In this document: piece by piece, positions 13,674-49,689 of the stretch | Layout of the letters: each line of letters opens with the position of its first letter | Position numbering within the stretch: the first letter of the stretch is position 1 | Translations under genes and position numbers: made by a program | NCBI GenBank assembly: GCA_041694815.1 | Contig: JBGFSC010000047.1 | Span: forward strand, 23,362 to 87,361 | Source of the DNA: Elusimicrobiota bacterium | Lineage (GTDB): Bacteria; Elusimicrobiota; Elusimicrobia; UBA1565; JACRDR01 | Length of the DNA: 64,000 nt | Direction: 5' to 3' | The notes under the pieces: generated by a model | Seen by the model: the letters and a program-made list of their open reading frames with translations, nothing else | Databases searched by the model: none | Told to the model about the DNA's origin: nothing

Positions 13674-13699
13674 TTGACGGAGGGACGTTAAGCTGCCCA

Positions 13700-13730
13700 G
13701 GTCCCGGGAAACGGGGCCTCTTATTTTTGG
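13700..13730 (+). terminator. rho-independent terminator (GGUCCCG-GGAAA-CGGGGCC + UCUUAUUUUUGG)
   Basis: 7-bp GC stem (one G.U) with 5-nt loop followed by a U-run on the plus strand. On the minus strand there is no U-run, so it serves the plus-strand small ORF. Confidence 0.6.
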
Positions 13731-13733
13731 CTC

Positions 13734-15098: not shown

Positions 15099-15099
15099 G

Positions 15100-20088: not shown

Positions 20089-20121
20089 CGCCGGCCAAAG
20101 GCATTTGCTAACATTTTAGTA

Positions 20122-22784: not shown

Positions 22785-23788
22785 AGCTCCGCTCGTATTT
22801 CTCCGGAAAACGCACGCTCGTTACCGGCGGCACCGGCATGATCGGCCGCGCCCTCGTGGCACGGCTCGTCGATGCCGGCGCCAAGGTGCGCATCGCCTCG
22901 CTCGACGATCCCTCGCGGGCGCATCCCAAGGCCGAATTCCTCAAGGCGGACCTGACCCGCTTCGAGGAGTGCCGCCGGGCCTGCAAAGGTATCGAGCTGG
23001 TCTTCCATCTGGCCGGCGTCAAAGGCTCGCCCTTAATGACCTCTAAGAAACCGGCGAGCTTCTTCGTGCCCACCATCTCCTTCAACACGAACATGATGGA
23101 GGCAGCGCGGCAATGCGGCGCCGCTAAATACCTCTACACGAGCTCGATCGGGGTCTACGCGCCCGCGCCCGTCTTTCGGGAAGACGACGTCTGGAAGACC
23201 TTTCCCTCCGACAACGACAAGTTCGCCGGCTGGGCCAAGCGCATGGGCGAGCTTCAGGCTGATGCCTACCGGATCGAATATGGCTGGCAGGGGGTCGAGA
23301 TCGTCCGGCCCGCCAATGTCTACGGCCCCTACGACAATTTCGACCCGGACAACGCGATGGTGATTCCGTCCTTGATCCGCCGCGCGCTCGATGGCGAGGA
23401 TCCCCTAACGGTCTGGGGGGACGGCTCGACGGTGCGCGACTTCATCCATGCCGAGGACGTCGCCCGCGGCATGATGCTGGTGATGGAGAAAGGGCTAGGC
23501 AAACCCGTCAATCTCGGCAGCGGCGAGGGCGTGAGCATCCGGCGCCTGGTGGAGATCATCGTCTCGCGGCTCAAGCGGAAGCCGCGCGTGGTCTGGGACA
23601 GCTCCCGGCCCGCCGGCGACCGCACGCGGCTCATGGACATCTCGCGCGCCAAGGCCCTGGGGTTTGAGCCGCGCGTGCCCATAGAGGAGGGCGTCGCGCA
23701 GGTCATGGACTGGTACGCCGGCAACCGCAAGGCGGCGCTCAAGCGCTATAACGTCTTCACGGAGAAGTCGCCCATCCCCGAACATTGA
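22766..23788 (+). CDS. GDP-L-fucose synthase-like SDR (nucleotide-sugar 3,5-epimerase/4-reductase)
   Basis: VTGGTGMIG Rossmann; NVYGPYDNFDPDNAMVIPSLIRR and VWGDGSTVRDFIHAEDVA blocks match Fcl/WcaG as recalled. Confidence 0.65.
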   Translation: MAKTALKLRSYFSGKRTLVTGGTGMIGRALVARLVDAGAKVRIASLDDPSRAHPKAEFLKADLTRFEECRRACKGIELVFHLAGVKGSPLMTSKKPASFFVPTISFNTNMMEAARQCGAAKYLYTSSIGVYAPAPVFREDDVWKTFPSDNDKFAGWAKRMGELQADAYRIEYGWQGVEIVRPANVYGPYDNFDPDNAMVIPSLIRRALDGEDPLTVWGDGSTVRDFIHAEDVARGMMLVMEKGLGKPVNLGSGEGVSIRRLVEIIVSRLKRKPRVVWDSSRPAGDRTRLMDISRAKALGFEPRVPIEEGVAQVMDWYAGNRKAALKRYNVFTEKSPIPEH

Positions 23789-24546
23789 TGCGACTGCTCG
23801 TGACCGGCGCCGGCGGCGGGCTGGGCCGTTTTCTATTCGAGCGCCTGGGCGGCCTGGGGCTGACCCGGCAAAACGCCGCCTCCCTGCTGCCGCGGCTTAG
23901 GCGTTCGGGGGTCGGCACCATCCTCCACTGCGCGGCAAGCCCCGCGCGGCAGGCTCGGGCCAAGCCCTTGCGCGAGTTCTTGGATGACAACCTTTTCCTG
24001 ACCCGGCGCCTGCTCGAGCTGCCTCATCGCAAATTCGTCTATATCTCGACGGTGGACGTCTACCCCAAGAGCGGCTCCAGGCACGCGGAGTCGGATCCGA
24101 TACGCCCCGACAAGGTCGAGGGGCTCTATGCCATGACGAAATGGCTTTCGGAACGGCTGGTCCAAGACCGCGGCCGCGGCCCGCTCATCCTGCGCCCAAG
24201 CTCGCTGTTAGGCGAGCACGCGCGGCCGAACAGCCTTTCGCGCCTGCTCGATGGCGGGCTCGTCCGCCTAAGCGCCTCTGGCGATTCGCGCTTCAACTGC
24301 GTTCGACACGAGGACCTGCTCGAATTCCTGCGCATCGCGCTGCGCCGGGACCTCAGGGGGATATACAATCTGGCCTCCTCCTCGGATATTACGCTTCTCC
24401 GGACGGCTCGAAGCCTCGGCGCCAAGGCCATTTTCGGACGCCATCGTTATCGGGTCCCCCGAGTCGACAACCGCAAGGCCGCCGCGCTATGGCCGGCCTT
24501 CCAACTCGGCTCGCTCGAGACCCTGCGCCGGAGCAAAAAAGTATAA
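23785..24546 (+). CDS. short SDR-family NAD(P)-binding reductase
   Basis: VTGAGGGLG and YAMTKWLSE (YxxxK); shorter than typical epimerases. Confidence 0.45.
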   Translation: MMRLLVTGAGGGLGRFLFERLGGLGLTRQNAASLLPRLRRSGVGTILHCAASPARQARAKPLREFLDDNLFLTRRLLELPHRKFVYISTVDVYPKSGSRHAESDPIRPDKVEGLYAMTKWLSERLVQDRGRGPLILRPSSLLGEHARPNSLSRLLDGGLVRLSASGDSRFNCVRHEDLLEFLRIALRRDLRGIYNLASSSDITLLRTARSLGAKAIFGRHRYRVPRVDNRKAAALWPAFQLGSLETLRRSKKV

Positions 24547-24556
24547 TGAAAACGTC

Positions 24557-25222
24557 ATGAAAACGACATTGCTCATGCCGATTTTAAACGAGATCCACGG
24601 CATGAGGGCGGTGATGCCGCGCGTGCGCCGGGAATGGGTCGACGAGATGCTCGTCATCGACGGCGGCTCCACCGACGGCAGCCTCGAATACGCCCAAGAG
24701 CTCGGCTGCCGCGTGCTGCGCCAGAAGACCCCGGGCATCACCTACGCCTACCAGGAGGGTGTGGCCGCGGCGTCGGGGGAGGTGATCGTGGCCTTCTCCC
24801 CGGACGGAAACTCGGTTCCCGAGCGTATCCCGGAGCTGCTCGCCAAGATGCGCGAGGGCTACGACATGGTGATCGTCTCGCGCTACTTGGACGGCGCCAA
24901 GAGCGAGGACGATGACTGTGTCACCGCCATTGGCAACCGGATATTCACGGCCGCCATCAATTGGACCTTCGGAGGCCGCTACACCGATTGCTTGGTGATG
25001 TTCCGCGCCTTCCGCAAGGACGCGGTGGGCGATTTCCCCTCCGGCATTCCCCGGGCGGGACTAGAGCCATTGCTGGCGATCCGCTGCGCTAAGGCCAAGA
25101 GGCGGGTCGCCGAAATACCAGGCGACGAACCCAAGCGCATCGGCGGGCAGCGGAAGATGAGCCCCGTGCTCAACGGCATCGACATCATCCGCCTCATCGC
25201 GCGGGAGTATTTTTCGAGATGA
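24557..25222 (+). CDS. GT2 glycosyltransferase (soluble, DPM/GtrB-like catalytic domain)
   Basis: LMPILNE, LVIDGGSTDGS, SPDGNSVPE motifs. Confidence 0.6.
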   Translation: MKTTLLMPILNEIHGMRAVMPRVRREWVDEMLVIDGGSTDGSLEYAQELGCRVLRQKTPGITYAYQEGVAAASGEVIVAFSPDGNSVPERIPELLAKMREGYDMVIVSRYLDGAKSEDDDCVTAIGNRIFTAAINWTFGGRYTDCLVMFRAFRKDAVGDFPSGIPRAGLEPLLAIRCAKAKRRVAEIPGDEPKRIGGQRKMSPVLNGIDIIRLIAREYFSR

Positions 25223-26187
25223 GCTCTAAACCCTGGCTGCTCATCACGGGCGCCGCCGGCTTCATCGGCAGGAATCTCCTGGAGCGCTTCGCCAAGAACC
25301 CAGCCTACTCGGTCGCGGCCGTCTGGCATCAGTCGCCGCGGCCCCGGGAGCTCATCGGCGACCCCCGAATACGCTGGATACGCGCCGACCTGACGCAGCC
25401 GGCGCAGGTACGCGATGCCGTCTCGGGCGCGGACATCGTGCTGCACGCCGCCGCCACTACCTCGGGCTCCAAGGATATCGTCGAGCGGCCCAGCCGGCAC
25501 GTCACCGACAACGCCGTGATGAACTCCCTGTTGTTTCGGGCTTGCCACGAGCAGAAGGTCAAGCACGCGGTGTTCTTTAGCTGCAGCGTCATGTACTCCC
25601 CGCAGGACAAGCCGGTACGCGAGAGCGATTTCCGCTACGAGATCACCGCGCCTTATTTCGGCGTCGGCTGGACGAAGGTGTACTCGGAGAAGATGTGCGA
25701 GTTCTATTCCAGGCTCGGCACGACGCGCTTTACGGCGATCCGGCATTCGAATATCTACGGCCCTCACGATAAATACGACTTGGAGAAGTCCCATGTCTTC
25801 GGCGCCACGCTCGCCAAGGTGATGTCGGCCGAGCGCGAAATCGTCGTGTGGGGAGAAGGGACGGAGGAGCGCGACCTGCTGCATGTCGACGACCTGGCCG
25901 ACTTCGTTGAGAAACTCGTCACCCTCCAGAAGGAGCCCTTCGAGCTCATCAATGTGGGTTCGGGCCGCTCTGTCGCCGTTCGCGACCTAGCCGCCAAGAT
26001 CATCGAGCTCTCGGGACGCAAGCTCGAGATGCGCTTCGACCGCTCCAAGCCGAGCATTCCCTTCAAGCTGGCCTTGGATTCGGGGCGCGCCAAGAAGGTC
26101 TACGGCTGGTCACCGTCGGTGTCCCTAGAGGAGGGCATTCGCCGCAGCCTCCAGTGGTACCGGGAGCATGTGGGGGCCGCCGCATGA
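25219..26187 (+). CDS. GDP-fucose-synthase-like SDR epimerase/reductase (second copy)
   Basis: ITGAAGFIG; NIYGPHDKYDLEKSHVFGATLAKV; VWGEGTEERDLLHVDDLADF. Confidence 0.6.
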   Translation: MSSKPWLLITGAAGFIGRNLLERFAKNPAYSVAAVWHQSPRPRELIGDPRIRWIRADLTQPAQVRDAVSGADIVLHAAATTSGSKDIVERPSRHVTDNAVMNSLLFRACHEQKVKHAVFFSCSVMYSPQDKPVRESDFRYEITAPYFGVGWTKVYSEKMCEFYSRLGTTRFTAIRHSNIYGPHDKYDLEKSHVFGATLAKVMSAEREIVVWGEGTEERDLLHVDDLADFVEKLVTLQKEPFELINVGSGRSVAVRDLAAKIIELSGRKLEMRFDRSKPSIPFKLALDSGRAKKVYGWSPSVSLEEGIRRSLQWYREHVGAAA

Positions 26188-27161
26188 GCGCCAAGGCCGA
26201 CCGCGAGCTGCTCGGCAAGCTCTACCGGCTCATGCTCGGCATACGGCTCGCCGAGGAAAAGATCGTCGAGCTCTACCCCACCGACAAGATCCAGAGCCCG
26301 ATACACCTGTCCATCGGCCAGGAGGCGGTCTCGGCAGGCCTCGCCTTGGCGATGGGCGAGGCGGACAGGCTCTACGGGACCTACCGGGGCCACGGCCCCT
26401 ATATCGCGCTCGGGGGCGATCTCAAGAAGCTGTTCGCGGAGCTCTACGGCAAGGACACGGGCTGCGCCCGCGGCAAGGGAGGCTCCATGCACCTGGTAGC
26501 TCCCGAGGCTGGGCTCATGGGCTGCTCGGCCATCGTCGCGAGCACCATCCCCATCGCCACCGGCCACGCCCTGGCCTCCCAGATGCGCGGCCGGCGCTAC
26601 GCGGTGCTCTCCCTCTTCGGCGACGGCGGCGTCGACGAAGGCGTATTCTTCGAGAGCGTCAACTTCGCCGTGCTCAAGAACCTCCCCATTGTCTACGTGC
26701 TCGAGAACAACCGCTACGCGATCCATTCGACGGTTCCGGACCGGCACAAGCAGACCGAGCTTTTCCGCATCGCCGAGGGGCTGGGGCTTCGGGGAGAGCG
26801 CTTCGACGGCAACGACGCCTCGAATGTCTACGCCACGGCCAAGCGGGCGATCGACGCGGTGCGCGCGGGCTCGGTCCCGGCGCTGCTCGAGTACACGACC
26901 TACCGCTGGAGGGAGCATGTGGGCTCGCAGGAGGACTATGCGGCCGCCTACCGCGCCCCCGGCGAACGCGAGGAGGCGCTGGCCCACGACCCGCTCCAGA
27001 TAACCCGGAAGGCCTTGATCGAGGCGGGCGCCAGCCCGGTAGAGCTCGACGGGTGGCGCTCGCAGGTTCTCCAAGAAGTCGAGGAGGCCGTGCGCTTCGC
27101 CGAGCAAAGCCCCAGCCCCGCGCCCGGCCGACTTCTGGCCGACGTGTACGCCTCCCGATGA
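26184..27161 (+). CDS. ThDP-dependent dehydrogenase E1 component, alpha subunit (pyruvate/acetoin dehydrogenase type)
   Basis: GDGGVDEGVFFESVNFA ThDP-binding motif; YRGHG, GKGGSMHL. Confidence 0.8.
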   Translation: MSAKADRELLGKLYRLMLGIRLAEEKIVELYPTDKIQSPIHLSIGQEAVSAGLALAMGEADRLYGTYRGHGPYIALGGDLKKLFAELYGKDTGCARGKGGSMHLVAPEAGLMGCSAIVASTIPIATGHALASQMRGRRYAVLSLFGDGGVDEGVFFESVNFAVLKNLPIVYVLENNRYAIHSTVPDRHKQTELFRIAEGLGLRGERFDGNDASNVYATAKRAIDAVRAGSVPALLEYTTYRWREHVGSQEDYAAAYRAPGEREEALAHDPLQITRKALIEAGASPVELDGWRSQVLQEVEEAVRFAEQSPSPAPGRLLADVYASR

Positions 27162-28189
27162 AAACCCTCAACTACGGCCAGGCCATCCACCGCGCGCTTG
27201 AGTTCGCCATGGAGAAGGACCCTTCCGTCTTCGTCATGGGCATCGGCGTCGACGATCACAAGGCCGTCTTCGGCACCACCAAGGGCCTGCTCGAGAAATT
27301 CGGCAGGGAACGCGTATTCGACACGCCGATCTCCGAGGGGGCCATGACCGGCGTCGCCGTCGGGGCGGCCCTAGGCGGCATGCGCCCGGTGCATATCCAC
27401 ATCCGCTCGGATTTCCTATACCTGGCCATGGACCAATTGCTCAATATGGCCGCCAAGTGGCGCTCGATGTTCGGAGGTGCCGCGAGCGTGCCGATCGTCG
27501 TGCGCGCCGTCATCGGGCGGAGCTGGGGCCAGGGGGCGCAGCACTCGCAGAGCCTGCAGTCGCTCATCGCGCATGTGCCAGGGATCAAGGTCGGCATGCC
27601 CACGACGCCGGCCGACGCACAACAGATGCTGCTGGCGGCCATCGCCGACCCCAACCCCGTCGTGCTCTTCGAGCATCGACTGCTCTACGACATCGTCGGC
27701 GAATTGCCCGAGCCGGATTGGGCGGTGGAATTTAAGCGCGCCGTCGTCCGCCGCCCGGGCAAGGACCTCACCATCGTCGCCAACTCCTACATGGCCGTGG
27801 AGGCTCTCAAGGCCGCGGAGTTCCTCCAGGAGCACGGCATCGAGGCCGAAATCGTCGACCCGGTCACCGTGGTGCCGCTGGATGAGGCCGTTATCCTCGG
27901 CTCGATCCGCAAGACGGGGCGGCTCATCGTCATCGACACTAGCTGGACCTTCTGTGGCGTGAGCGCGGAGATTGCCGCCCTAGCCGCCGAAAAAGCCTTC
28001 TCGAGCTTGAAGCAGCCGGTTTTAAGGCTCGGCATGCAGCCAACCCCTTGCCCGGTGAGCAAGCCGCTCGAGAACCTCTTCTACCCCAACGCCGGCACCA
28101 TCGCCGACGCCGCCTTCAAGATGATGGAGCGCCGCTCGCCCGAGCTGCGCGCCCCGGTTCTGACCCACGCCTTCAAGGGGCCGTTCTGA
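27158..28189 (+). CDS. ThDP-dependent dehydrogenase E1 component, beta subunit
   Basis: ATG 27158 overlaps the alpha stop (ATGA); transketolase-like pyrimidine-binding and C-terminal domains. The ORF-track 26168 start is a frame extension through the alpha gene. Confidence 0.8.
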   Translation: MKTLNYGQAIHRALEFAMEKDPSVFVMGIGVDDHKAVFGTTKGLLEKFGRERVFDTPISEGAMTGVAVGAALGGMRPVHIHIRSDFLYLAMDQLLNMAAKWRSMFGGAASVPIVVRAVIGRSWGQGAQHSQSLQSLIAHVPGIKVGMPTTPADAQQMLLAAIADPNPVVLFEHRLLYDIVGELPEPDWAVEFKRAVVRRPGKDLTIVANSYMAVEALKAAEFLQEHGIEAEIVDPVTVVPLDEAVILGSIRKTGRLIVIDTSWTFCGVSAEIAALAAEKAFSSLKQPVLRLGMQPTPCPVSKPLENLFYPNAGTIADAAFKMMERRSPELRAPVLTHAFKGPF

Positions 28190-29355
28190 TGATCCGCTAT
28201 TACCTCGCCGAGGACACGATCGACCGCAAGGACGTCGACCGACTCGTCGACTGGCTCAAGACATACCCGAGGCTCACCCAGGGGCCGCTGGTCCGGCAAT
28301 TCGAGGAGAAATGGAGCCGCTGGCTTGGGGCCCCGCGCTCGGTGTTCTGCAACTCCGGGTCCTCGGCCAACCTGCTGATGTACTATGCCCTGCTGCTCTC
28401 GGGCAGGCTCAAGAACCGCGAGGTGGTCGTGCCCTCCGTCGGCTGGGGCACCTCCATCGCACCGGCGATACAGTTCGGTTTCGAGCCGCTGATCTGCGAG
28501 GCGGACAAGGACACCTTCGGCCTCGACTTGAACCATCTCGAGGCGCTGCTTAAAAAGCACAAGCCCTCCTCCGTCCTGCTGGTTCAGGTGTTGGGCGTCC
28601 CGCACAAGATGAAGGAGCTTATGGCCCTGAAGAAGAAATACAAGTTCTTCCTGATGGAGGACGCCTGTGCCGCGATCGGGGCCGCTTATCAAGGCCGCCA
28701 TGTCGGCACCTTCGGCGACATGGCGAGCTTCTCATTCTATTTCGGGCATCAGATGTCGACGATCGAAGGCGGCATGGTCTCGACCTCGGACAAGAAATTC
28801 GCCGACCTGCTGCGCTTGACTCGCGCCCACGGCTGGAGCAAGGACTTAGACGCCGAGGCTCATCAGGCCTTGGTCAAAAAGCATCGCATCGATGATTTCC
28901 ATACCCCATTCGTCTTCTACGAGCCTGGCTTCAATCTCCGATCGACCGATCTTAATGCCTTCCTGGGCCTGGGCCAGGTCGACAAGCTCGCCTGGATCAT
29001 CGAGACCAGGCAGCGCAACCATGCGATTTACTCCCGGTTGCTGGGCGCGCGCTTCTACACGCAGAAGCCGGAACCGGGGTCTACGGTGTGCAGCATTTCT
29101 TTCGGCATGCTGGCCGACGACGCCAAGCAGCGCCGAGCCATTGTGAGCGCCCTGGTGGAAAATGGGGTGGAGACGCGAATATTTTCCGCGGGCAACCTGG
29201 GCCTGCACCCCTTCTGGGTCAAGCGATTCGGCAAGGCGAGTTTTCCCATGGCCGATCGCATCCATCACACGGGACTATTTTTGCCCAATAATCCGTCGCT
29301 TTCTACGGATACGGTCGAAAGCATCGCCAAGATTGTCCTGGAGGCGGCCCGATGA
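28189..29355 (+). CDS. DegT-fold PMP-dependent nucleotide-sugar 3-dehydratase (ColD/E1-like; His replaces Schiff-base Lys)
   Basis: DegT/DnrJ/EryC1 fold; the PLP-lysine position reads SFSFYFGHQMSTIEGG (His, no Lys) as in ColD/AscC; ATG 28189 overlaps the E1-beta stop. Confidence 0.6.
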   Translation: MIRYYLAEDTIDRKDVDRLVDWLKTYPRLTQGPLVRQFEEKWSRWLGAPRSVFCNSGSSANLLMYYALLLSGRLKNREVVVPSVGWGTSIAPAIQFGFEPLICEADKDTFGLDLNHLEALLKKHKPSSVLLVQVLGVPHKMKELMALKKKYKFFLMEDACAAIGAAYQGRHVGTFGDMASFSFYFGHQMSTIEGGMVSTSDKKFADLLRLTRAHGWSKDLDAEAHQALVKKHRIDDFHTPFVFYEPGFNLRSTDLNAFLGLGQVDKLAWIIETRQRNHAIYSRLLGARFYTQKPEPGSTVCSISFGMLADDAKQRRAIVSALVENGVETRIFSAGNLGLHPFWVKRFGKASFPMADRIHHTGLFLPNNPSLSTDTVESIAKIVLEAAR

Positions 29356-30335
29356 CCCCCACGATCCGGCGGGTGTTGATCACGGGCATCACCGGCTCCG
29401 GCGGCAGTTACCTCGCCGATCACATACTCGAGGAGCATCCAAAGGTGGAGCTGCACGGCATTACGCGCTGGCATACCTCCTCGAGCCATCGCGATCTCTT
29501 CGGCGGCCGGGCGATACTGCATGAATGCGATCTTACCGATCTGCTCTCCGTGCTCAACGCCGTGGAGAAATCCAAGCCGGACGCCATCTTCCATCTGGCG
29601 GCGCACGCCAACGTGCGCGCCTCCTTCGACACCCCGGGCGCGGTTCTCACGAACAACATACTCGGGACCAGCAATCTCTTCGAGGCCGTGCGCCGGTGCA
29701 AGCTGAACCCGCTGATCCAGCTCTGCAGCACCTCCGAGGTCTACGGGCAGGTGGATCCCACGGACCTGCCCATTAAAGAAGACGCGCCTCTGCGACCCAT
29801 TAGCCCCTATGCGGTTTCGAAGACCGCCCAGGACCTTTTGGGCTGGGGCTATTTCAAGAGCTACGGCATGCGCATCATCCGCACGCGGATGTTCACCTAT
29901 TTCAATCCCCGGCGCACCGATCTGTTCGCCACCGCCTTCGCGCGGCAGATCGCCTGGATCGAGCAGGGGCTAGCCAAGGAATTGCGCCACGGGAACCTGA
30001 ACTCGGTGAGGACCTTCATCGACGTACGCGACGCGGTGCGCGCCTATTGGGAAGCGACCCTGCATTGCGTCCCCGGCGAGGCCTACAATATCGGCGGCCG
30101 CACGACGATGACGGTGGGCGACTGCCTCGAACGCCTCAAGGCCCTAGCCAAGGTGAAGATCCCGACTCGGCAGGACCCGGCGCTGATGCGCCCGGCCGAC
30201 GTGACCCTGCAGATCCCCTGCGTGGACAAATTCGTCAAGGCCACCGGCTGGCAGCCCCGATACGATTTTGACGACAGCCTGCGGCATCTCTTGGAGCACT
30301 GGCGCGCCGAGGCGAGGAGGGAGAAAGCGGCATGA
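29352..30335 (+). CDS. GDP-mannose 4,6-dehydratase-like enzyme (Gmd/DmhA family)
   Basis: VLITGITGSGGSYLADHILE matches the Gmd N-terminus ITGITGQDGSYLAE; YAVSKTAQD catalytic YxxxK. Confidence 0.7.
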   Translation: MTPTIRRVLITGITGSGGSYLADHILEEHPKVELHGITRWHTSSSHRDLFGGRAILHECDLTDLLSVLNAVEKSKPDAIFHLAAHANVRASFDTPGAVLTNNILGTSNLFEAVRRCKLNPLIQLCSTSEVYGQVDPTDLPIKEDAPLRPISPYAVSKTAQDLLGWGYFKSYGMRIIRTRMFTYFNPRRTDLFATAFARQIAWIEQGLAKELRHGNLNSVRTFIDVRDAVRAYWEATLHCVPGEAYNIGGRTTMTVGDCLERLKALAKVKIPTRQDPALMRPADVTLQIPCVDKFVKATGWQPRYDFDDSLRHLLEHWRAEARREKAA

Positions 30336-31273
30336 TCCAACGGGTGCTGGTCACGGGAGGCGCGGGCTATATCGGCTCGGTGCTGGTCCCGCTGCTTTTG
30401 GAGCGGGGCTTTAAGGTCACGGTGCTCGATAATTTCCTCTACGGGCAAAACAGCCTGCTCGACTGCTGCGGGCGCGAGGGATTCGAGATCGTGCGCGGCG
30501 ATTGCCGCGACGAGCGCCTTCTCTCCGAGCAGCTCAGGAACGCGGATATACTCATTCCCCTGGCCGCGCTGGTGGGCGTCCCGGCCTGCGACCGGGACCC
30601 CGTCGCCGCCGAGACCACCAACCTGGGGGCCGTGCGCTCACTCTGCAAGCTCGCCTCCAAATCGCAGCGGATGCTGTTCCCGGTAACCAACAGCGGCTAT
30701 GGGATCGGCGTGAAGGGCAAGGCCTGCACCGAAGAAAGCCCTCTCAAGCCGCTCTCGCTCTACGGCCGCACCAAGGTGCAGGCCGAGGAGGCGGTGCTCT
30801 CTCGCGGCAATTCCATCGCCTTCCGCCTGGCCACCGCCTTCGGCGCCTCGCCGCGCATGCGCATGGACCTGCTCGTCAACGATTTCGTCCACCGCGCCGT
30901 CAGCGACCGCGCCGTCGTGGTGTTCGAGGGGCATTTTCAGCGCAATTACATCCATGTCCGCGACATTGCCCGAGTCTTTTTGCACGGCATCGAGCGCTTC
31001 GACTCGATGCAGGGCAGGCCCTACAATGTCGGCCTCGAGGACGCCAATCTCTCCAAGCTCGAGCTCTGCGCCATGATCCAAAAAATCGTGCCGCAATTCG
31101 TGTTCGTCGAGGCCCCGGTGGGCGAGGACCCGGACAAGCGCGATTACATCGTCTCCAACGCGCGGCTTTTGTCGACGGGGTTTAAACCCGAGTGGAGCTT
31201 GGAGCGGGGGATACGGGAACTGGTTAAGGCGTATAAGATACTCAAGGGTTTTAATCCTTATGCCAACGCATAA
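30332..31273 (+). CDS. SDR nucleotide-sugar 4-ketoreductase/epimerase (RfbJ/ColC-like)
   Basis: VTGGAGYIGS; YGRTKVQAEE. Confidence 0.5.
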   Translation: MIQRVLVTGGAGYIGSVLVPLLLERGFKVTVLDNFLYGQNSLLDCCGREGFEIVRGDCRDERLLSEQLRNADILIPLAALVGVPACDRDPVAAETTNLGAVRSLCKLASKSQRMLFPVTNSGYGIGVKGKACTEESPLKPLSLYGRTKVQAEEAVLSRGNSIAFRLATAFGASPRMRMDLLVNDFVHRAVSDRAVVVFEGHFQRNYIHVRDIARVFLHGIERFDSMQGRPYNVGLEDANLSKLELCAMIQKIVPQFVFVEAPVGEDPDKRDYIVSNARLLSTGFKPEWSLERGIRELVKAYKILKGFNPYANA

Positions 31274-31282
31274 ACGGCGGCC

Positions 31283-32293
31283 ATGATCATCAGCCGAACC
31301 CCCTTCCGCATGTCCTTCTTCGGCGGCGGGACCGATTACCCCGCCTGGTTCCGCGAGAACGGCGGCTGCGTGCTGTCGACGACGATCAACAAGTACTGCT
31401 ACATTACCTGTCGCTACCTGCCCCCCTTCTTCGACTACCGCAGCCGCATCCTCTACTCCAAGGTCGAGACGGTGCAGGACAACGGAGACATCGAGCACCC
31501 GGCGGTGCGCGCCATCCTCAAGCATTTAGACATTAGCCAGGGAGTCGAAATCCATCATGACGGAGATCTTCCCGCCCGCACGGGACTGGGCTCCTCCTCT
31601 TCCTTCGCGGTCGGCCTGCTGCACGCCCTGCGCGCCATGCGGCATCAGCCCCGCGATAAGATGCAATTGGCGCAGGAGGCCATACACATCGAGCAGGAGA
31701 TCCTCCAGGAAAACGTCGGCTGCCAGGACCAGGTGATCGCCGCCGTAGGAGGCCTCAATCGCATCGATTTCCATCCCAACGGAAAGATCGATGTCGACCC
31801 CGTCACCATCAGCCCCGCGCGGCTCTGCGAACTACAGGAGCACCTCCTGCTCTATTTCACCGGCTTTTCCCGCATCGCCTCCCTGATCGTGAAGGAGCAG
31901 CTCAACCGCATACAGGACACGAAGGCCCAGCTCAAGCGCATGCAGGCCATGGTGCGCGAGTCGATCGACATACTCAGCGGCGGCGACCTCGCGGATTTCG
32001 GCCGGCTGCTCGATGAGGGTTGGTCACTCAAGCGCACGCTGAGCTCGAAGGTCTCCTCGCCCTTCATTGACGAGATTTACGAGAACGCCAAGGCCTGCGG
32101 CGCCCTGGGCGGAAAGCTGCTTGGAGCCGGGGGAGGTGGCTTCATGCTGATCTTCGCCCGCCCTCAGGACCAGCCGAAGATCAAGGAGCGCCTCAAGAAG
32201 CTCATGCGCATCCCTTTCCAGATCGAAGACGACGGAAGCCGCATCATCCTCTACCAACCGGACGCGCAAGACGGCGCACTTCCTGAATCTTGA
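31283..32293 (+). CDS. hddA: D-glycero-D-manno-heptose 7-phosphate kinase-like GHMP kinase
   Basis: MIISRTPFRMSFFGGGTDYP N-terminus and GLGSSSSFAVGLLHAL GHMP motif. Confidence 0.7.
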   Translation: MIISRTPFRMSFFGGGTDYPAWFRENGGCVLSTTINKYCYITCRYLPPFFDYRSRILYSKVETVQDNGDIEHPAVRAILKHLDISQGVEIHHDGDLPARTGLGSSSSFAVGLLHALRAMRHQPRDKMQLAQEAIHIEQEILQENVGCQDQVIAAVGGLNRIDFHPNGKIDVDPVTISPARLCELQEHLLLYFTGFSRIASLIVKEQLNRIQDTKAQLKRMQAMVRESIDILSGGDLADFGRLLDEGWSLKRTLSSKVSSPFIDEIYENAKACGALGGKLLGAGGGGFMLIFARPQDQPKIKERLKKLMRIPFQIEDDGSRIILYQPDAQDGALPES

Positions 32294-32976
32294 TGGTGGA
32301 TGCCGTTATCCTCTGCGGCGGGCTCGGCACGCGGCTGCGCGAGGCGGTGCCGGACCGGCCCAAGCCCATGGCCGACGTGGGCGGCAGGCCGTTTTTGGAG
32401 CTGTTGGTCGACTGGGTCGCCGGTCAGGGCTTTAATCGGATCATACTCTGCGTGGGCCATCGAGCGGACATGGTGCGGGCGCATTTTCGCTCGGACTCGC
32501 GCCGCGAGATCCTATTCTCCGAGGAAAGGGAGCCTCTAGGGACCGGAGGGGCCCTGCGCCTGTGCCGTCCGCATGGCGCGAGCGATCCTTTCCTGGTACT
32601 CAACGGCGATTCTTTCTGCGACATAGACCTTCACGCGATGCTTCAGTTCCACGCGGAGAAGAAGGCCGCTGCCACGGTGGCGGCGGTGCGCCCGGACGGG
32701 CGCGAGGATGGGGGCAATATCGCGGCGGGCACGGACATGCGGGTTTCGGCCTTCGCCGAGAAAAAGAAAACCGAAGGCGCCGCTTGGCTCAACGCCGGGG
32801 TCTACGCCTTGGGCTCCCGCGTATGGGACTTCATTCCTCCAGGGCGCAGCTCCTTAGAAACGGACGTGCTGCCCAAGATGCTCCTTGCCGGCGTCTACGT
32901 GTTCGCCACGAGCGCGACCCTCTTCGATATCGGCACTCCCGCGCGGCTGGAGGCCTTCCGCCGCTTGAGGTCATGA
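32290..32976 (+). CDS. hddC: heptose-1-phosphate guanylyltransferase-like nucleotidyltransferase
   Basis: AVILCGGLGTRLRE...PKPM nucleotidyltransferase signature; translationally coupled to hddA. Confidence 0.65.
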   Translation: MMVDAVILCGGLGTRLREAVPDRPKPMADVGGRPFLELLVDWVAGQGFNRIILCVGHRADMVRAHFRSDSRREILFSEEREPLGTGGALRLCRPHGASDPFLVLNGDSFCDIDLHAMLQFHAEKKAAATVAAVRPDGREDGGNIAAGTDMRVSAFAEKKKTEGAAWLNAGVYALGSRVWDFIPPGRSSLETDVLPKMLLAGVYVFATSATLFDIGTPARLEAFRRLRS

Positions 32977-34886
32977 ACCTACTCTTCATCTGCCACGAGC
33001 TTCCACCCATCGGGGGAGGCTCTGGCAACGCGGCCCTGGCCTTGGCCCGCGAGCTTGCCGTGGAGCACTCCGTGGTGCTGCTCACTTCCGGCTATCGCGA
33101 GTTGCCGGCTCAAGAACGGCATGGACAACTCCGCGTGCTGCGCTTGCCATCACCCAGGCGTCGCGTCGACGGAGCCAGCCCCATTGAACTCGTCGCCTTC
33201 GCGGCCCTCGCCGTCCGGGAGGCCTCGCGCCTGCATCGCGAACGACCCTTCGACGCCGCCGTCGCGGTGCACGCCACCGCGGCCGCATGGGCGGCGTGGC
33301 TCTTGCGCAAGCGGCGCGGCATTCCCTACGTGCTCGCTTTGAGGGGTGCCGACGTGCCAGGCTTCTTCCCGGAAATGTACGGCTGGATGCACCGAGCATC
33401 CTCCTGGCTCACTCGGCGATGTTGGGGCAGCGCCGCGGCGCTGGTGGCCAACAGCGAGGGCTTAAAACGGCTGGCCGAACGCACCGCCGCGCCCTTGGGA
33501 CGCGCCGTTAAGCTTATCGAAAACGGCGTCGACGCGGATTTCTTCACGCCCGCGGCTTCCATGCCCCAGGGGCAGGGCCTGTTCGTCGGAAGGCTGAGCC
33601 GGCAGAAGGGCCTCGAGCCGTTCTTCGAAGCGCTGCGCCTCGGCGCGCCGAGGCTGCGCGGCCGGCTGCGCCTTGAGATCGTAGGCGTAGGGGAATTGGC
33701 AAGCACATTAAGTCGCCTGGCCGAGGACGGCTTGGCCGACATCGTCTCTTTTTCCCCATGGATGGACAAGGAAGCGCTGCGTGAAAGATACCGGGCATCC
33801 TCCTTTTTCGTTTTTCCGTCGTTGGAGGAAGGCATGTCCAACGCCCTGCTCGAGGCGATGGCCTGCGGGCTCCCGGTACTGGCCGCCGACGTCTACGGCA
33901 ACAAGGGCTTGGTCGAAAACGGGGTCAACGGCTTCCTCATCCCGCCTGATGATCCGGCCGCCTGGGCCGAAGCCCTCTACCGCATGGCGGCCCTGGAACC
34001 CACCGCCCTTAAGTCCATGGGCCAAAAAAGCCGCCAGAAGGCGCTGGGCAAGAGTTGGGGAGAGGCGGCGCGCCGCTATGAATCACTGCTGCCCCATCCC
34101 GCCGCGTGGACCCCCGAGCGCGTCGCGCGTTTCTTCGACCTGTATCAGGCCCAGGGCGGGCTAGAGGATAACTATTTCGGGAGGCAGAGGGGAGCTGCCC
34201 TGCTGCGTTTCGTGCTCCGCCGAAGCCTCCTGCCGCAGCCGGCGCTCGATGTCGGCTGCGGTCCCGGCTATTTTCTCGAGTATCTGGTCGCCGCGCGGAT
34301 CCGCTGCGCCGGCGCCGACCTGTCGGCGGCCTCCGTCGAGCGGGCGAACCGGCGGCTGGGCGGAAATCCATATTTCCTGGGGGCGCACCGGATGGGCGAT
34401 GGCTTTGCGCTCCCCTTCGAGGACGGGGCCTTCCAAAGCGCCTTCCTGATGGAGACGGCCGAGCATCTGCTGCCGGAGTCGATTGCGGCCGTGTTCGGCG
34501 AGCTCCGCCGGGTATTGGCGCCGGGTGGCCGCCTGGTGGTCACTACGCCTTACCGCGAGGACCTGCGGGATTCCTCTTTGCTATGCCCGCATTGCGGCGC
34601 CACCTTCCACCAGATCCAGCATGTCTCTTCCTTCGACGAACGCAACCTGCCGGAGCTGCTCGAGAGCCACGGCTTTTCCTGCGAGCTGGCCGAGGCACCA
34701 GCGCTTCTTCCAGACTGGCGCATCTGGCTTCGGGCGCAGGGTGGACTCGGGGCATCGGCGGCGGCATGCCCCGAATGCGGGAAGGCCTTCGCGCCGCCCG
34801 CTCCGGGCCTCCTAAAACGGGCGCGGATGCTGCTTCGGGAGCTGCGCCATCTAGTCTGCGTGGCGCACCGGGCGCCTGGCAAGTAG
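32973..34886 (+). CDS. GT4 glycosyltransferase fused to a C-terminal SAM-dependent methyltransferase domain
   Basis: EGMSNALLEAMACGLPVLAADV GT4 signature; later LDVGCGPGYFLEYL SAM motif; ATG 32973 (ATGA overlap with hddC). Confidence 0.7.
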   Translation: MNLLFICHELPPIGGGSGNAALALARELAVEHSVVLLTSGYRELPAQERHGQLRVLRLPSPRRRVDGASPIELVAFAALAVREASRLHRERPFDAAVAVHATAAAWAAWLLRKRRGIPYVLALRGADVPGFFPEMYGWMHRASSWLTRRCWGSAAALVANSEGLKRLAERTAAPLGRAVKLIENGVDADFFTPAASMPQGQGLFVGRLSRQKGLEPFFEALRLGAPRLRGRLRLEIVGVGELASTLSRLAEDGLADIVSFSPWMDKEALRERYRASSFFVFPSLEEGMSNALLEAMACGLPVLAADVYGNKGLVENGVNGFLIPPDDPAAWAEALYRMAALEPTALKSMGQKSRQKALGKSWGEAARRYESLLPHPAAWTPERVARFFDLYQAQGGLEDNYFGRQRGAALLRFVLRRSLLPQPALDVGCGPGYFLEYLVAARIRCAGADLSAASVERANRRLGGNPYFLGAHRMGDGFALPFEDGAFQSAFLMETAEHLLPESIAAVFGELRRVLAPGGRLVVTTPYREDLRDSSLLCPHCGATFHQIQHVSSFDERNLPELLESHGFSCELAEAPALLPDWRIWLRAQGGLGASAAACPECGKAFAPPAPGLLKRARMLLRELRHLVCVAHRAPGK

Positions 34887-43619: not shown

Positions 43620-43620
43620 A

Positions 43621-49601: not shown

Positions 49602-49689
49602 GCCGCTAATACGTAACAGGAACTTCAAAAAAATGCAATACATTCTTAGGTGCCTGGGCGAAAGTCAATCCCTGGCACCTAGGCCACGC

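What the first reader, a model, noticed from the sequence alone, without database searches (positions are those of the whole stretch)
28189..31273. Gmd-like 4,6-dehydratase + ColD/E1-like His-type 3-dehydratase + reductases next to GDP-heptose genes: predicted 3,6-dideoxy (hepto)sugar pathway
The DegT-fold protein (28189-29355) has His at the Schiff-base position (SFSFYFGHQMSTIEGG, no Lys). That substitution is the hallmark of the PMP-dependent 3-dehydratases ColD and AscC/E1, not of aminotransferases. It is translationally coupled to a Gmd-type 4,6-dehydratase (ITGITGSGGSYLADHILE) and an SDR reductase, and sits next to hddA/hddC GDP-heptose activation genes. This combination predicts a GDP-linked 3,6-dideoxy-hexose or -heptose (colitose-like logic applied to GDP-manno-heptose), a rare sugar class.
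Basis: partly seen in the sequence, partly recalled or inferred. Interest (0 to 1): 0.7.

Follow-up and report, generated by a model that had tools for sequence, protein, structure and literature searches.

The report
Branched deoxy-heptose sugar operon
A ten-gene operon in an uncultured bacterium most likely converts GDP-heptose into a 3-deoxy or 3,6-dideoxy sugar, probably with an added two-carbon branch, for the cell surface; its key lysine-less enzyme is real but belongs to a very widespread branch of the family that nobody has studied.

Summary
The 388-aa DegT-fold protein (28189-29355) has His187 exactly where ColD has His188 and E1 has His220. That His is invariant in 120/120 close homologs, and no lysine occurs there in 150 more distant ones. 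The protein lacks E1's Fe-S cysteines, so it is a ColD-type, PMP-dependent 3-dehydratase.

1. The protein is not a ColD ortholog (30% identity). It sits in a large uncharacterised clade found in Elusimicrobiota, Patescibacteria, Deltaproteobacteria, KSB1 and Nanoarchaeota MAGs.
2. The "SDR reductase" (30332-31273) is 55% identical to Cj1427, the GDP-heptose C4-dehydrogenase. Its ortholog flanks the His enzyme in 25/25 informative loci. The Gmd-like 4,6-dehydratase is present in only 9.
4. GDP-3,6-dideoxy-heptose synthesis by colitose logic was already shown in C. jejuni in 2023.

Best model: GDP-heptose is converted to the 4-keto form (with or without 6-deoxygenation). It then becomes a 3-deoxy-4-keto intermediate, gains a thiamine-dependent two-carbon branch at C4, is reduced, and is passed to a polyprenyl-phosphate carrier and GT-C transferases. 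This is a new variant of known chemistry, of moderate to good interest.

The parts
24557..25222 (+). Small GT2 glycosyltransferase (221 aa), polyprenyl-phosphate sugar synthase type; first gene of the tightly coupled block
   Evidence: PF00535. Best NCBIfam matches are AglJ, dolichyl-phosphate hexose transferase and ArnC, all below cut-off. Orthologs at 47-67% identity occur in 7 related loci.
25219..26187 (+). Extended SDR (322 aa), GDP-fucose-synthase-like; candidate epimerase/ketoreductase
   Evidence: NCBIfam GDP-L-fucose synthase at 144 bits, below the 500-bit cut-off. Best PDB relatives are GDP-fucose synthase (GMER) and GDP-mannose 3,5-epimerase. Orthologs at 57-70% identity lie in L006, L008, L011 and L025, beside the His enzyme in L006 and L008. 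ATGA overlap with the next gene.
26184..27161 (+). Thiamine-diphosphate enzyme, pyruvate-dehydrogenase E1 alpha-like subunit (325 aa)
   Evidence: PF00676 at 207 bits. TIGR03182 at 295 bits, below the 394-bit cut-off. Best PDB relatives are PDH E1 alpha, ahead of BCKDH. The GDG...NN ThDP motif is readable in the translation. No E2 or E3 gene was found among the window ORFs scanned.
27158..28189 (+). Pyruvate-dehydrogenase E1 beta-like subunit (343 aa)
   Evidence: PF02779 plus PF02780. PRK09212 at 303 bits against a 321-bit cut-off. PDH E1 beta of Geobacillus is the best PDB hit at 229 bits. ATGA overlap with the alpha gene and a 1-nt overlap with the His enzyme. An E1 alpha/beta pair lies in 10 related loci, directly beside the His enzyme in 8.
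28189..29355 (+). His-type, Fe-S-free, DegT-fold PMP-dependent sugar 3-dehydratase of an uncharacterised clade (388 aa); catalytic His187
   Evidence: AlphaFold model pLDDT 97.9; TM-score 0.88-0.90 to ColD.
29352..30335 (+). Gmd-family SDR (327 aa), most likely a GDP-heptose 4,6-dehydratase
   Evidence: PF16363 at 216 bits. It is 36.5% identical to C. jejuni GDP-heptose 4,6-dehydratase (7us5) and 36.4% to Rmd (2pk3). Motifs 'CSTSEVYG', 'NPRRTDLF' and 'TGITGSGGS' match the dehydratases. Both Rmd reductases have 'GPGQ' in place of the RR loop.
30332..31273 (+). [quoted passage not shown]
   Evidence: PDB 6vo6/6vo8 at 387 bits, 55% identity over 310 residues. 6vo6 is identified as Cj1427 through primer Cj1427cF918, whose reverse complement encodes RAFKMMKV, the C-terminal stretch of the chain. 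An ortholog lies in 25/25 informative loci, adjacent to the His enzyme in most and at most a few genes away in the others.
31283..32293 (+). GHMP kinase, HddA-like (heptose-7-phosphate 1-kinase)
   Evidence: Best PDB relatives are heptose kinases 3k85, WcbL (4usk) and 4n3o. NCBIfam HddA at 146 bits against a 600-bit cut-off. Orthologs at 50-73% identity occur in 15 loci.
32293..32976 (+). Sugar-1-phosphate nucleotidyltransferase, HddC/ManC-like (start more likely the ATG at 32293 than the TTG at 32290)
   Evidence: Best PDB relative is Yersinia HddC (6jq8/5xhw) at 128 bits. NCBIfam HddC at 114 bits against a 300-bit cut-off. Junction read.
32973..34886 (+). GT4-type glycosyltransferase fused to a SAM methyltransferase; last gene of the block
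   Evidence: PF13692/PF00534 plus PF08241. ATGA overlap with the preceding gene.
19186..24546 (+). Upstream genes on the same strand: Rieske-domain protein (19186-20088), GT2 (20122-21012), GT-C/PMT_2 membrane transferase (about 21003-22784), Fcl-like SDR (22766-23788), short SDR (23788-24546)
   Evidence: SDR340 orthologs (50-70%) recur in 7 related loci. Whether these genes belong to the same transcript was not shown; the promoter and terminator scan was at chance level.
50415..53279 (-). Second, canonical heptose-activation set that supplies the steps missing from the operon: GmhA-like isomerase (50415-51020), HddA-like kinase (51031-52038), nucleotidyltransferase fused to a GmhB-like phosphatase (51999-53279)
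   Evidence: gmhA 113 bits, HddA 153 bits, GmhB PRK08942 164 bits against a 178-bit cut-off.

Best explanation
The gene at 28189-29355 encodes a genuine lysine-less, PMP-dependent nucleotide-sugar 3-dehydratase that works like ColD. The 4-keto sugar forms a ketimine with PMP. His187 abstracts the PMP C4' proton. The 3-OH is expelled, hydrolysis releases the 3-deoxy-4-keto sugar plus ammonia, and glutamate regenerates PMP. No Fe-S cluster or reductase partner is involved. The enzyme belongs to a large uncharacterised clade, not to the ColD or E1 orthologous groups.

It sits in a ten-gene, translationally coupled operon (24557-34886) that I read as follows.
1. [quoted passage not shown] The isomerase and phosphatase come from the second gene set at 50.4-53.3 kb.
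2. C4 is oxidised in one of two ways. The Cj1427-like dehydrogenase (30332-31273) keeps the 6-OH. The DdahA/Gmd-like 4,6-dehydratase (29352-30335) removes it.
3. The His enzyme removes the 3-OH, giving GDP-3-deoxy- or GDP-3,6-dideoxy-4-keto-heptose. The alpha-ketoglutarate it releases is the co-substrate that a Cj1427-type enzyme needs, so the two reactions are chemically coupled.
4. The PDH-E1-like alpha/beta pair decarboxylates pyruvate and adds the two-carbon unit to the C4 carbonyl, as AviB1/B2, Plm8/9 and YerE do on 4-keto-deoxyhexoses.
5. An Fcl-like SDR (25219-26187) reduces the product.
6. The small GT2 loads the sugar onto polyprenyl phosphate for one of the window's GT-C transferases.

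Shown here: steps 1-3 are supported at the level of homology, motifs and conserved synteny. Inferred only from context and precedent: steps 4-6 and the alpha-ketoglutarate coupling.

My probabilities: His enzyme is a 3-dehydratase acting on a GDP-4-keto-heptose, about 0.75. The E1 pair adds a C2 branch to that product, about 0.5. The whole scheme as written, about 0.4-0.45.
For: His enzyme:
- His187 aligns with ColD His188 and E1 His220. It is invariant in 120/120 homologs, and no Lys occurs in 150 further representatives.
- 44 family-invariant residues are shared with both ColD and E1, including SGSxANLL, E157-D158, S182 and EGG.
- Of E1's Fe-S cysteines C193/C251/C253/C261, only the C193 equivalent is kept, and ColD has that one too.
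- The model has pLDDT 97.9 and TM-score 0.88-0.90 to ColD.
- The published rule is that His in place of the catalytic Lys defines the sugar 3-dehydratases (PMC8987622).

GDP-heptose as substrate:
- The SDR at 30332-31273 is 55% identical to Cj1427.
- The Gmd-family protein is closest to GDP-sugar enzymes, including the GDP-heptose 4,6-dehydratase, and carries dehydratase-type motifs.
- The kinase and transferase are closest to the heptose kinases and HddC.
- A complete GmhA/HddA/HddC-GmhB set lies in the same window.

Pairing:
- A Cj1427-like ortholog is present in 25/25 informative loci across at least five phyla, and adjacent to the His enzyme in most of them.
- Cj1427 plus a ColD-type C3-dehydratase makes GDP-3-deoxy-4-keto-heptose in vitro. 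The C3-dehydratase releases alpha-ketoglutarate and Cj1427 needs it (PMC10680097).

E1 pair:
- 1-4-nt overlaps on both sides, and no E2 or E3 gene nearby.
- It lies in 10/25 loci, directly beside the His enzyme in 8, in two different gene orders. A split transketolase takes its place in L003-L005.
- L006 is fully syntenic with the window at 64-75% identity.
- PDH-E1-like pairs attach pyruvate-derived C2 branches to 4-keto sugars (PMC4802897; PMC4753412). YerE does the same with CDP-4-keto-3,6-dideoxyglucose (PMC9306805).

Carrier route:
- GT2 matches to AglJ, dolichyl-P hexose transferase and ArnC, and six PMT_2 genes in the window.
Against: - No enzyme of this clade has been assayed. At 30% identity to ColD, substrate and even reaction outcome are inferred.
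- Fold alone does not separate dehydratases from aminotransferases. Foldseek ranks a transaminase (7b0m) first, and true aminotransferases reach TM-scores of 0.85-0.87.
- The HddA, HddC, gmd and PDH-E1 NCBIfam scores are all below the curated cut-offs.
- The operon kinase is only 43% identical to the second, canonical kinase in the window, so it could act on a different sugar phosphate.
- 15 of 25 loci lack the E1 pair, so branching is not an obligatory part of the module. Many of those loci carry B12-radical-SAM enzymes instead.
- I could not compare the E1 pair with AviB1/B2 or Plm8/9 sequences.
- If the Fcl-like SDR is a C4-reductase of the ColC type, it would compete with C4 branching.
- Why the operon holds both a C4-dehydrogenase and a 4,6-dehydratase is unresolved. 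C. jejuni HS:3, HS:4 and HS:23/36 have both and make two products.
Confidence: 0.45

Rival explanations
1. This is a plain colitose-type route on GDP-heptose: 4,6-dehydratase, then 3-dehydratase, then epimerase/reductase. It yields an unbranched GDP-3,6-dideoxy-heptose, and the thiamine enzymes play no part in the sugar.
For: - The Gmd-family enzyme has dehydratase-type motifs.
- Two Fcl/ColC-like SDRs are present.
- This exact route is proven in C. jejuni HS:5 and HS:11.
- 15/25 related loci have no E1 pair.
Against: - The E1 alpha/beta genes overlap their sugar-gene neighbours by 1-4 nt and recur in 10 loci of several phyla, directly beside the His enzyme in 8.
- The 4,6-dehydratase ortholog is present in only 9/25 loci, whereas the Cj1427-like dehydrogenase is present in all 25.
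- The model gives no role to the Cj1427-like enzyme.
Confidence: 0.25
2. The operon makes only 6-hydroxy-3-deoxy-heptose. The Gmd-family protein is an Rmd-like C4-reductase that finishes the pathway, not a 4,6-dehydratase.
For: - The best PDB hit by score is the Rmd reductase 2pk3 (189 bits, against 182 for the heptose dehydratase). Identity to the two is equal at 36.4% and 36.5%.
- The Cj1427-like enzyme already supplies a 4-keto substrate.
Against: - The query has the 'PRR' loop, the 'TGxTGxxGS' motif and 'STSE', as the dehydratases do.
- Both solved Rmd reductases have 'GPGQ', and 'TGVAGFVG' is seen in 2pk3, the only Rmd aligned over that region.
Confidence: 0.1
3. The E1 alpha/beta pair is a housekeeping or acetoin-type 2-oxoacid dehydrogenase component that merely landed in the operon. 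Alternatively, it supplies an acyl donor rather than forming a C-C bond with the sugar.
For: - Its closest solved relatives are ordinary PDH E1 subunits.
- The beta subunit scores 303 bits against a 321-bit PDH cut-off.
Against: - No E2 or E3 genes are nearby.
- Synteny with the His enzyme is conserved across phyla in two gene orders, and a split transketolase substitutes in other loci.
- The genes are translationally coupled to sugar genes on both sides.
Confidence: 0.12
4. The His-type protein is not a dehydratase. It is an aminotransferase using another residue, an epimerase, or a catalytically dead paralog.
For: - E1 and SpnQ show side activities, including transamination under forcing conditions.
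- No member of this clade has been assayed.
Against: - His is invariant and Lys absent in about 245 homologs.
- 133 of 388 positions are near-invariant in the clade, which indicates strong purifying selection.
- All cofactor-binding motifs are retained.
- A separate Lys-type aminotransferase exists in the window.
Confidence: 0.05

Closest known systems
ColD (GDP-4-keto-6-deoxy-D-mannose 3-dehydratase, E. coli O55; PDB 2gms)
   Same: - DegT/aspartate-aminotransferase fold (TM-score 0.88-0.90).
- His in place of the Schiff-base lysine, in the same column.
- No [2Fe-2S] cysteine motif.
- Same length, about 388 aa.
- Cofactor-binding motifs conserved.
- GDP-sugar context.

   Different: - Only 30% identical, in a separate large clade on the NJ tree.
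- Gly186 precedes the His, where ColD has Ser187.
- The partner is a Cj1427-like C4-dehydrogenase and the substrate a heptose, not GDP-mannose-derived.
- Thiamine enzymes are adjacent.
C. jejuni HS:5/HS:11 GDP-3,6-dideoxy-heptose pathway (4,6-dehydratase, C3-dehydratase, C5-epimerase, C4-reductase; PMC10440746)
   Same:
- A related Gmd-family dehydratase (36.5% identity to 7us5).
   Different: - The C. jejuni C3-dehydratases are 62-67% identical to ColD. This protein is 30% identical.
- C. jejuni uses separate dedicated epimerases, and I saw no candidate for one in the operon.
- The HS:5 cluster lacks both a Cj1427 homolog and thiamine enzymes.
Cj1427 plus HS:5 C3-dehydratase, combined in vitro to make GDP-D-glycero-3-deoxy-4-keto-heptose (PMC10680097)
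   Same: It is the same pair of activities that this clade keeps side by side in 25/25 loci, with alpha-ketoglutarate as the shared metabolite.
   Different: In the paper the combination is artificial, and the products are described as novel rather than natural. Here the pairing is natural, conserved and operonic.
[quoted passage not shown]
   Same: His at the catalytic position and PMP chemistry up to the glucoseen intermediate.
   Different: E1 and SpnQ carry the four-cysteine [2Fe-2S] motif and need a reductase partner. Three of the four cysteines are missing here. A true E1-type enzyme, with the motif, sits separately in loci L003-L005 and L007.
AviB1/AviB2, Plm8/Plm9 (Pau11/Pau12) and YerE/YerF: thiamine-dependent two-carbon branching of 4-keto deoxysugars
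   Same: A PDH-E1-like alpha/beta heterodimer is encoded inside a deoxysugar cluster without E2 or E3. The acceptor would be a 3-deoxy-4-keto sugar, as in yersiniose.
   Different: - The known examples act on dTDP- or CDP-hexoses in actinomycete antibiotics or enterobacterial O-antigens. This would be a GDP-heptose in uncultured phyla.
- Sequence relatedness to AviB1/B2 was not tested.
- YerE is a single-chain acetolactate-synthase-type enzyme.

Membership tests
PMP-dependent nucleotide-sugar 3-dehydratases (ColD/E1/SpnQ group) | Fold type I (DegT/aspartate aminotransferase-like) dimeric PLP/PMP enzyme | tested here: met
   PF01041 at 234 bits. ColD E=1e-47. Model pLDDT 97.9 with TM-score 0.88-0.90 to ColD. 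The fold does not separate these enzymes from aminotransferases.
PMP-dependent nucleotide-sugar 3-dehydratases (ColD/E1/SpnQ group) | Catalytic histidine in place of the Schiff-base lysine | tested here: met
   His187 aligns with ColD His188 and E1 His220. It is invariant in 120/120 homologs, with no Lys among 150 further representatives. A Lys-type paralog in the window serves as a control.
PMP-dependent nucleotide-sugar 3-dehydratases (ColD/E1/SpnQ group) | C3 deoxygenation of an NDP-4-keto sugar | not testable with these tools
   Needs an enzyme assay. The genomic context supplies two candidate 4-keto-forming enzymes.
ColD subtype | No [2Fe-2S] motif; PMP regenerated by L-glutamate without a reductase | tested here: met
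   The absence of the motif was tested and is met: the E1 C251, C253 and C261 equivalents are a gap, Leu and Leu. Use of glutamate cannot be tested here.
ColD subtype | Orthology with ColD (the characterised members, E. coli, Yersinia and C. jejuni, are 62-67% identical to one another) | tested here: not met
   30% identity. On the NJ tree ColD and E1 branch outside the radiation that holds the window protein. More than 150 cluster representatives score higher against the query than ColD does.
E1/AscC subtype | C-X57-C-X1-C-X7-C iron-sulfur motif and an E3-type reductase partner | tested here: not met
   for the motif. No E3-like ferredoxin-NAD reductase was seen. A Rieske-domain protein at 19186-20088 is not part of the conserved neighbourhood.
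GDP-heptose/GDP-mannose 4,6-dehydratases (DdahA/WcbK, DmhA, Gmd) | Catalytic (S/T)-S-E motif, plus the RR loop and TGxTGxxGS nucleotide motif that distinguish dehydratases from Rmd reductases | tested here: met
   'CSTSEVYG', 'NPRRTDLF' and 'TGITGSGGS'. However, NCBIfam gmd scores 133 bits against a 415-bit cut-off, and identity to the dehydratase and to Rmd is equal.
Cj1427-type GDP-heptose C4-dehydrogenases | Full-length close similarity to Cj1427 (PDB 6vo6) | tested here: met
   387 bits and 55% identity over 310 of 313 residues. The identity of 6vo6 was verified through a published primer. Tight NADH binding and alpha-ketoglutarate dependence cannot be tested here.
HddA / HddC (GDP-heptose activation) | Score above NCBIfam's equivalog cut-offs | tested here: not met
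   146 vs 600 bits and 114 vs 300 bits. The best solved relatives are nevertheless heptose kinases and HddC.
PDH-E1-type sugar C-branching enzymes (AviB1/B2, Plm8/9) | E1 alpha/beta heterodimer with a ThDP motif, encoded in a deoxysugar cluster without E2 or E3 | tested here: met
PDH-E1-type sugar C-branching enzymes (AviB1/B2, Plm8/9) | Phylogenetic grouping with AviB1/B2 and Plm8/9, and carboligation activity | not tested
   Reference sequences could not be reached with these tools.

The most novel reading that the evidence does not exclude
Uncultured bacteria of many phyla (Elusimicrobiota, Patescibacteria/CPR, Deltaproteobacteria, KSB1, this high-GC organism, even a Nanoarchaeota MAG) share a mobile, strongly conserved cassette. 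In it, a Cj1427-type oxidase and a new clade of PMP 3-dehydratase form an alpha-ketoglutarate/glutamate-coupled pair that makes GDP-3-deoxy-4-keto-heptose. That compound is so far known only as an in-vitro product.

This hub intermediate would then be diversified. PDH-E1-type carboligases would give C4-acetyl or hydroxyethyl-branched nine-carbon sugars. B12-radical-SAM enzymes, or 6-deoxygenation, would give others. The products would be exported through polyprenyl-phosphate carriers and GT-C transferases onto the cell surface. That would make it a previously unrecognised family of natural branched deoxy-heptoses.
Probability: 0.35. Interest if true: 0.75.

Novelty: new variant of a known kind. 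Interest (0 to 1): 0.55.

Why it matters
If the model holds, three things follow.

1. It gives a natural role to a reaction pair (C4-dehydrogenase plus C3-dehydratase on GDP-heptose) that has only been assembled artificially.
2. It extends thiamine-dependent sugar branching from hexoses in antibiotics and O-antigens to GDP-heptoses.
3. It points to a conserved surface-glycan building block in lineages such as CPR and Elusimicrobia, whose envelope chemistry is almost unknown.

The clade is about 70% identical across phyla. One biochemical characterisation would therefore annotate thousands of database entries now labelled 'DegT family aminotransferase' or 'CDP-6-deoxy-D-xylo-4-hexulose-3-dehydrase'. 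It would also supply new enzymes for making rare GDP-deoxyheptoses.

Tried and rejected
- Heptose origin for erwiniose or caryophyllose. I considered that the cassette (with B12-radical-SAM genes in other loci) might make these 3,6-dideoxy-4-C-hydroxyethyl higher sugars from heptose. I dropped the idea: the literature explains them as CDP-4-keto-3,6-dideoxyglucose plus long alpha-keto acids via YerE-type enzymes (PMC9306805).
- Full-text search for the PDB code 6VO6 found nothing relevant. The Cj1427, ColD and heptose-dehydratase structure papers are not held. I therefore could not check named substrate-contact residues. 6vo6 was identified through a primer sequence instead.
- The window's exact protein (P0001) is not on record in the contig index, so the source organism could not be named.
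- The promoter and terminator scan of 18.8-35.2 kb gave counts close to the shuffled expectation and does not define the transcript.
- The Foldseek search against PDB confirmed the fold but cannot separate dehydratase from aminotransferase. A transaminase ranks first.
- BLAST identity and bit score alone could not decide dehydratase versus Rmd reductase for 29352-30335 (36.5% vs 36.4%). Only the motif comparison discriminated.
- I considered the Rieske protein at 19186-20088 as an E3-like electron donor. I rejected it because the enzyme lacks the Fe-S motif and the Rieske gene is not conserved in related loci.

Full report
**Observation.** The interval 28189-31273 holds three overlapping plus-strand genes.

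The first (28189-29355, 388 aa) is a DegT/DnrJ/EryC1-family protein (PF01041, 234 bits).

In these alignments query His187 falls in the column of the first His of ColD's 'SHH'. Three mutant entries identify that column independently as His188: 3b8x (H188N), 3gr9 (S187N/H188K) and 2r0t, which has Lys in that column. In a 122-sequence MAFFT alignment the same column is E1 His220.

- His187 is invariant in 120/120 close homologs.
- It is present in 71 of 72 diverse homologs; the exception has Asn.
- It was found in 125 of the 150 nearest 50%-identity cluster representatives. None has lysine, and the remainder are fragments or insertion-bearing sequences.
- A second DegT-fold gene in the window (59336-60463, minus strand) carries the canonical lysine, SFDAIKNLAMGEGG.

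The substitution is therefore neither an alignment artefact nor chance.

**What kind of His enzyme.** A review of nucleotide-sugar dehydratases gives two rules. His in place of the catalytic Lys is the key difference between the 3-dehydratases (ColD, E1, SpnQ) and aminotransferases. E1 and SpnQ additionally carry a four-cysteine [2Fe-2S] motif that ColD lacks (PMC8987622).

My numbering of the aligned E1 sequence reproduces C193, C251, C253 and C261. The family keeps only the C193 equivalent, which ColD also has. The other three positions are a gap, Leu and Leu. Forty-four residues that are near-invariant in the clade are shared with both ColD and E1, including SGSxANLL, E157-D158, S182 and EGG. 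An AlphaFold model built on 72 sequences has mean pLDDT 97.9 and superposes on ColD with TM-score 0.88-0.90. True aminotransferases reach 0.85-0.87, so fold does not discriminate.

Mechanistically the protein is thus ColD-like. It is not a ColD ortholog, for four reasons.

- It is 30% identical to ColD and 29% to E1, while ColD and E1 are 33% identical to each other.
- ColD and E1 branch outside the radiation that holds the window protein on a neighbour-joining tree.
- More than 150 cluster representatives score better against the query than ColD does.
- The characterised C. jejuni heptose C3-dehydratases are 62-67% identical to ColD.

The clade is large and strikingly conserved. More than 100 clusters are 69-76% identical to the query. 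They come from MAGs of Elusimicrobiota, Patescibacteria, Deltaproteobacteria, KSB1 and even a Nanoarchaeota bin. Databases name them 'DegT family aminotransferase' or, at JGI, CDP-hexulose 3-dehydrase.

**The neighbours.** The second gene (29352-30335) is in the Gmd family (PF16363, 216 bits). Its best solved relatives are the Rmd reductase 2pk3 (189 bits) and the C. jejuni GDP-heptose 4,6-dehydratase 7us5 (182 bits), at 36.4% and 36.5% identity. Motifs decide between them. The query has CSTSEVYG, the NPRRTDLF 'RR loop' and TGITGSGGS, as 7us5 and the GDP-mannose dehydratases do. Both Rmd structures have GPGQ in place of the RR loop, and TGVAGFVG is seen in 2pk3, the only Rmd aligned over that N-terminal region.

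The third gene (30332-31273) is not a generic reductase. It hits PDB 6vo6/6vo8 at 387 bits and is 55% identical over 310 residues. The chain's C-terminal RAFKMMKV is encoded by the reverse complement of the published primer 'Cj1427cF918' (PMC3546167). [quoted passage not shown]

Downstream lie two further genes. One is a GHMP kinase whose best solved relatives are heptose kinases. The other is a nucleotidyltransferase closest to Yersinia HddC. Both fall far below NCBIfam's equivalog cut-offs.

A complete canonical heptose set sits on the minus strand at 50.4-53.3 kb: a GmhA-like isomerase, a second HddA-like kinase, and a nucleotidyltransferase fused to a GmhB-like phosphatase. Taken together, GDP-heptose as the substrate is well supported.

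Immediately upstream, and overlapping the neighbouring genes by 1-4 nt, are a pyruvate-dehydrogenase-E1-like alpha subunit (26184-27161) and beta subunit (27158-28189). Before them come an Fcl-like SDR (25219-26187) and a small GT2 (24557-25222). From 24557 to 34886 ten genes are joined by overlaps or a 9-nt gap. No E2 or E3 gene was found among the window ORFs scanned.

**Comparative evidence.** I fetched 30 loci encoding relatives of the His enzyme and mapped the window's proteins onto them with tblastn. There are 26 non-redundant loci with a close relative, of which 25 have usable flanks.

| Neighbour of the His enzyme | Identity to window protein | Loci (of 25) |
|---|---|---|
| Cj1427-like SDR | 53-75% | 25 |
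| GHMP kinase | 50-73% | 15 |
| B12-radical-SAM-like genes | not scored | 15 |
| E1 alpha/beta pair | alpha 36-64%, beta 50-71% | 10 |
| Gmd-like dehydratase | 58-73% | 9 |
| Small GT2 | 47-67% | 7 |

- The Cj1427-like SDR is next to the His enzyme, or a few genes away, in every informative locus.
- The E1 pair occurs in two gene orders. It abuts the His enzyme in 8 of the 10 loci; in L025 it lies about 3 kb away and in L028 about 7 kb away. L003-L005 carry a split transketolase instead.
- L006 (Elusimicrobiota) is fully syntenic with the window at 64-75% identity.
- L008, L011 and L013 show a reduced module: His enzyme, E1 alpha, E1 beta and the Cj1427-like SDR, preceded in L008 and L011 by the Fcl-like SDR. 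No Gmd-family dehydratase was detected.
- A Pelagibacteraceae genome (L030) has the same kinase / His-enzyme / Gmd-like / Cj1427-like / transferase order, built around a different His-type clade with the motif 'YYAHHMTTIEGG'.

**Mechanism.** The constant partner is the C4-dehydrogenase, not the 4,6-dehydratase. The conserved core reaction is therefore most simply GDP-heptose to GDP-4-keto-heptose to GDP-3-deoxy-4-keto-heptose.

Exactly this two-enzyme conversion was achieved in vitro by mixing Cj1427 with the C. jejuni HS:5 C3-dehydratase. The authors described the products as novel. In the held literature, '3-deoxy-heptose' occurs only in that paper. The C3-dehydratase consumes glutamate and releases alpha-ketoglutarate and ammonia, and Cj1427 requires alpha-ketoglutarate. 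The adjacency could therefore reflect metabolic coupling. This is my inference.

In the window, the added Gmd-like dehydratase would also allow the 3,6-dideoxy series. C. jejuni serotypes that carry both enzymes make both 6-hydroxy and 6-deoxy heptoses.

For the E1 pair the best precedent is the attachment of a pyruvate-derived two-carbon branch to the C4 carbonyl of deoxy-keto sugars. PDH-E1-like pairs do this (Plm8/9 = Pau11/12, AviB1/B2, kosinostatin), as does YerE in yersiniose. The E1 subunits here resemble pyruvate-specific E1s more than branched-chain ones.

A subsequent reduction by the Fcl-like SDR, whose relatives are all GDP-sugar enzymes, is a plausible next step but is not shown. 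The same holds for transfer to polyprenyl phosphate by the AglJ/ArnC-like GT2, for use by one of six GT-C/PMT_2 transferases in the window.

**Comparison with the known, and novelty.**

It is not a new sugar class.
- What is not described is a distinct and very widespread His-type clade. It is naturally paired with a Cj1427-type oxidase and frequently with thiamine-dependent or B12-radical-SAM enzymes, in uncultured phyla.
- I file the enzyme as working like ColD, but not as a member of the ColD or E1 orthologous groups.
- I file the locus as a new variant of known deoxy- and branched-sugar chemistry.

**Confidence.**

| Claim | Probability |
|---|---|
| His-type 3-dehydratase acting on a GDP-4-keto-heptose | about 0.75 |
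| Two-carbon branching by the E1 pair | about 0.5 |
| Full scheme as written | about 0.4-0.45 |

Nothing here has been assayed. All NCBIfam equivalog cut-offs are missed. I could not compare the E1 pair with AviB1/B2 sequences.

Noticed in passing
window 50415-53279 (-): A complete second heptose-activation set: GmhA-like isomerase, HddA-like kinase (43% identical to the operon's kinase) and a nucleotidyltransferase fused to a GmhB-like phosphatase. A small GT2 (about 49690-50418) lies next to it.
   Followed up: partly
window 16137-18137(-), 21003-22784(+), 35666-36889(-), 39754-41454(-), 58116-59573(-), 60945-62648(-): Six GT-C/PMT_2-type membrane glycosyltransferases and four small polyprenyl-phosphate-type GT2 genes lie in one 64-kb window. 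That is an unusually dense set for lipid-carrier-dependent, extracytoplasmic glycosylation.
   Followed up: partly
window 59336-60463 (-): A Lys-type DegT aminotransferase ('SFDAIKNLAMGEGG'; WecE, ArnB and PseC are its best NCBIfam matches) sits between two GT-C genes. It probably belongs to a separate amino-sugar pathway.
   Followed up: partly
window 42621-46618 (-): Four tandem paralogous trypsin-like (Trypsin_2) serine peptidase genes.
   Followed up: no
window 47775-49643 (-): A protein with a CarboxypepD_reg domain and a type IX secretion C-terminal sorting domain (Por_Secre_tail). This hints that the high-GC host (about 64% GC) belongs to, or is near, the FCB group.
   Followed up: no
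window 34851-39727 (-) and 32973-34886 (+): Sugar-decorating genes flank the operon: a methyltransferase (34851-35684), a carbamoyltransferase (36879-38921), a radical-SAM/SPASM enzyme (38642-39727) and a GT4::methyltransferase fusion.
   Followed up: no
window 53288-56588 (-): Two tandem PmbA/TldD-like metallopeptidase genes.
   Followed up: no
homologs P0131, P0150, P0169, P0263 (838-888 aa): Some relatives of the His enzyme are split into two matched stretches by a roughly 450-aa insertion placed exactly in the catalytic motif ('...C LHN|STIEGG'). It looks like an intein inserted just after the catalytic His.
   Followed up: no
L003-L005 about 13990-18090; L007 about 13650-17700: About 3-6 kb downstream of the new-clade enzyme, these Elusimicrobia loci carry a classical E1/RfbH-type His enzyme (458 aa, with the Cys motif 'RDCWCKTGVSNTC'), a nucleotidyltransferase and a 4,6-dehydratase-like SDR. 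One locus thus holds two different 3-deoxygenation systems.
   Followed up: partly
L001, L012 (Deltaproteobacteria); L003, L017, L019-L021 and others: Many related loci carry one or two B12-binding radical-SAM enzymes, and L001 and L012 also carry a SIS isomerase plus a transaldolase/FSA-like gene and an aldo-keto reductase beside the module. This suggests C-methylation or other radical chemistry as an alternative decoration of the same intermediate.
   Followed up: no
L030 8980-13758 (Pelagibacteraceae SAG): The same gene order (kinase, His-type enzyme, Gmd-like, Cj1427-like, nucleotidyltransferase) is built around a His-type enzyme of a different clade (31% identical to the window protein, 33% to ColD).
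   Followed up: partly
window 19186-20088 (+): A 300-aa protein with a C-terminal Rieske [2Fe-2S] domain and no NCBIfam match heads the long plus-strand gene run. Its role is unknown, and it is not conserved in related loci.
   Followed up: no
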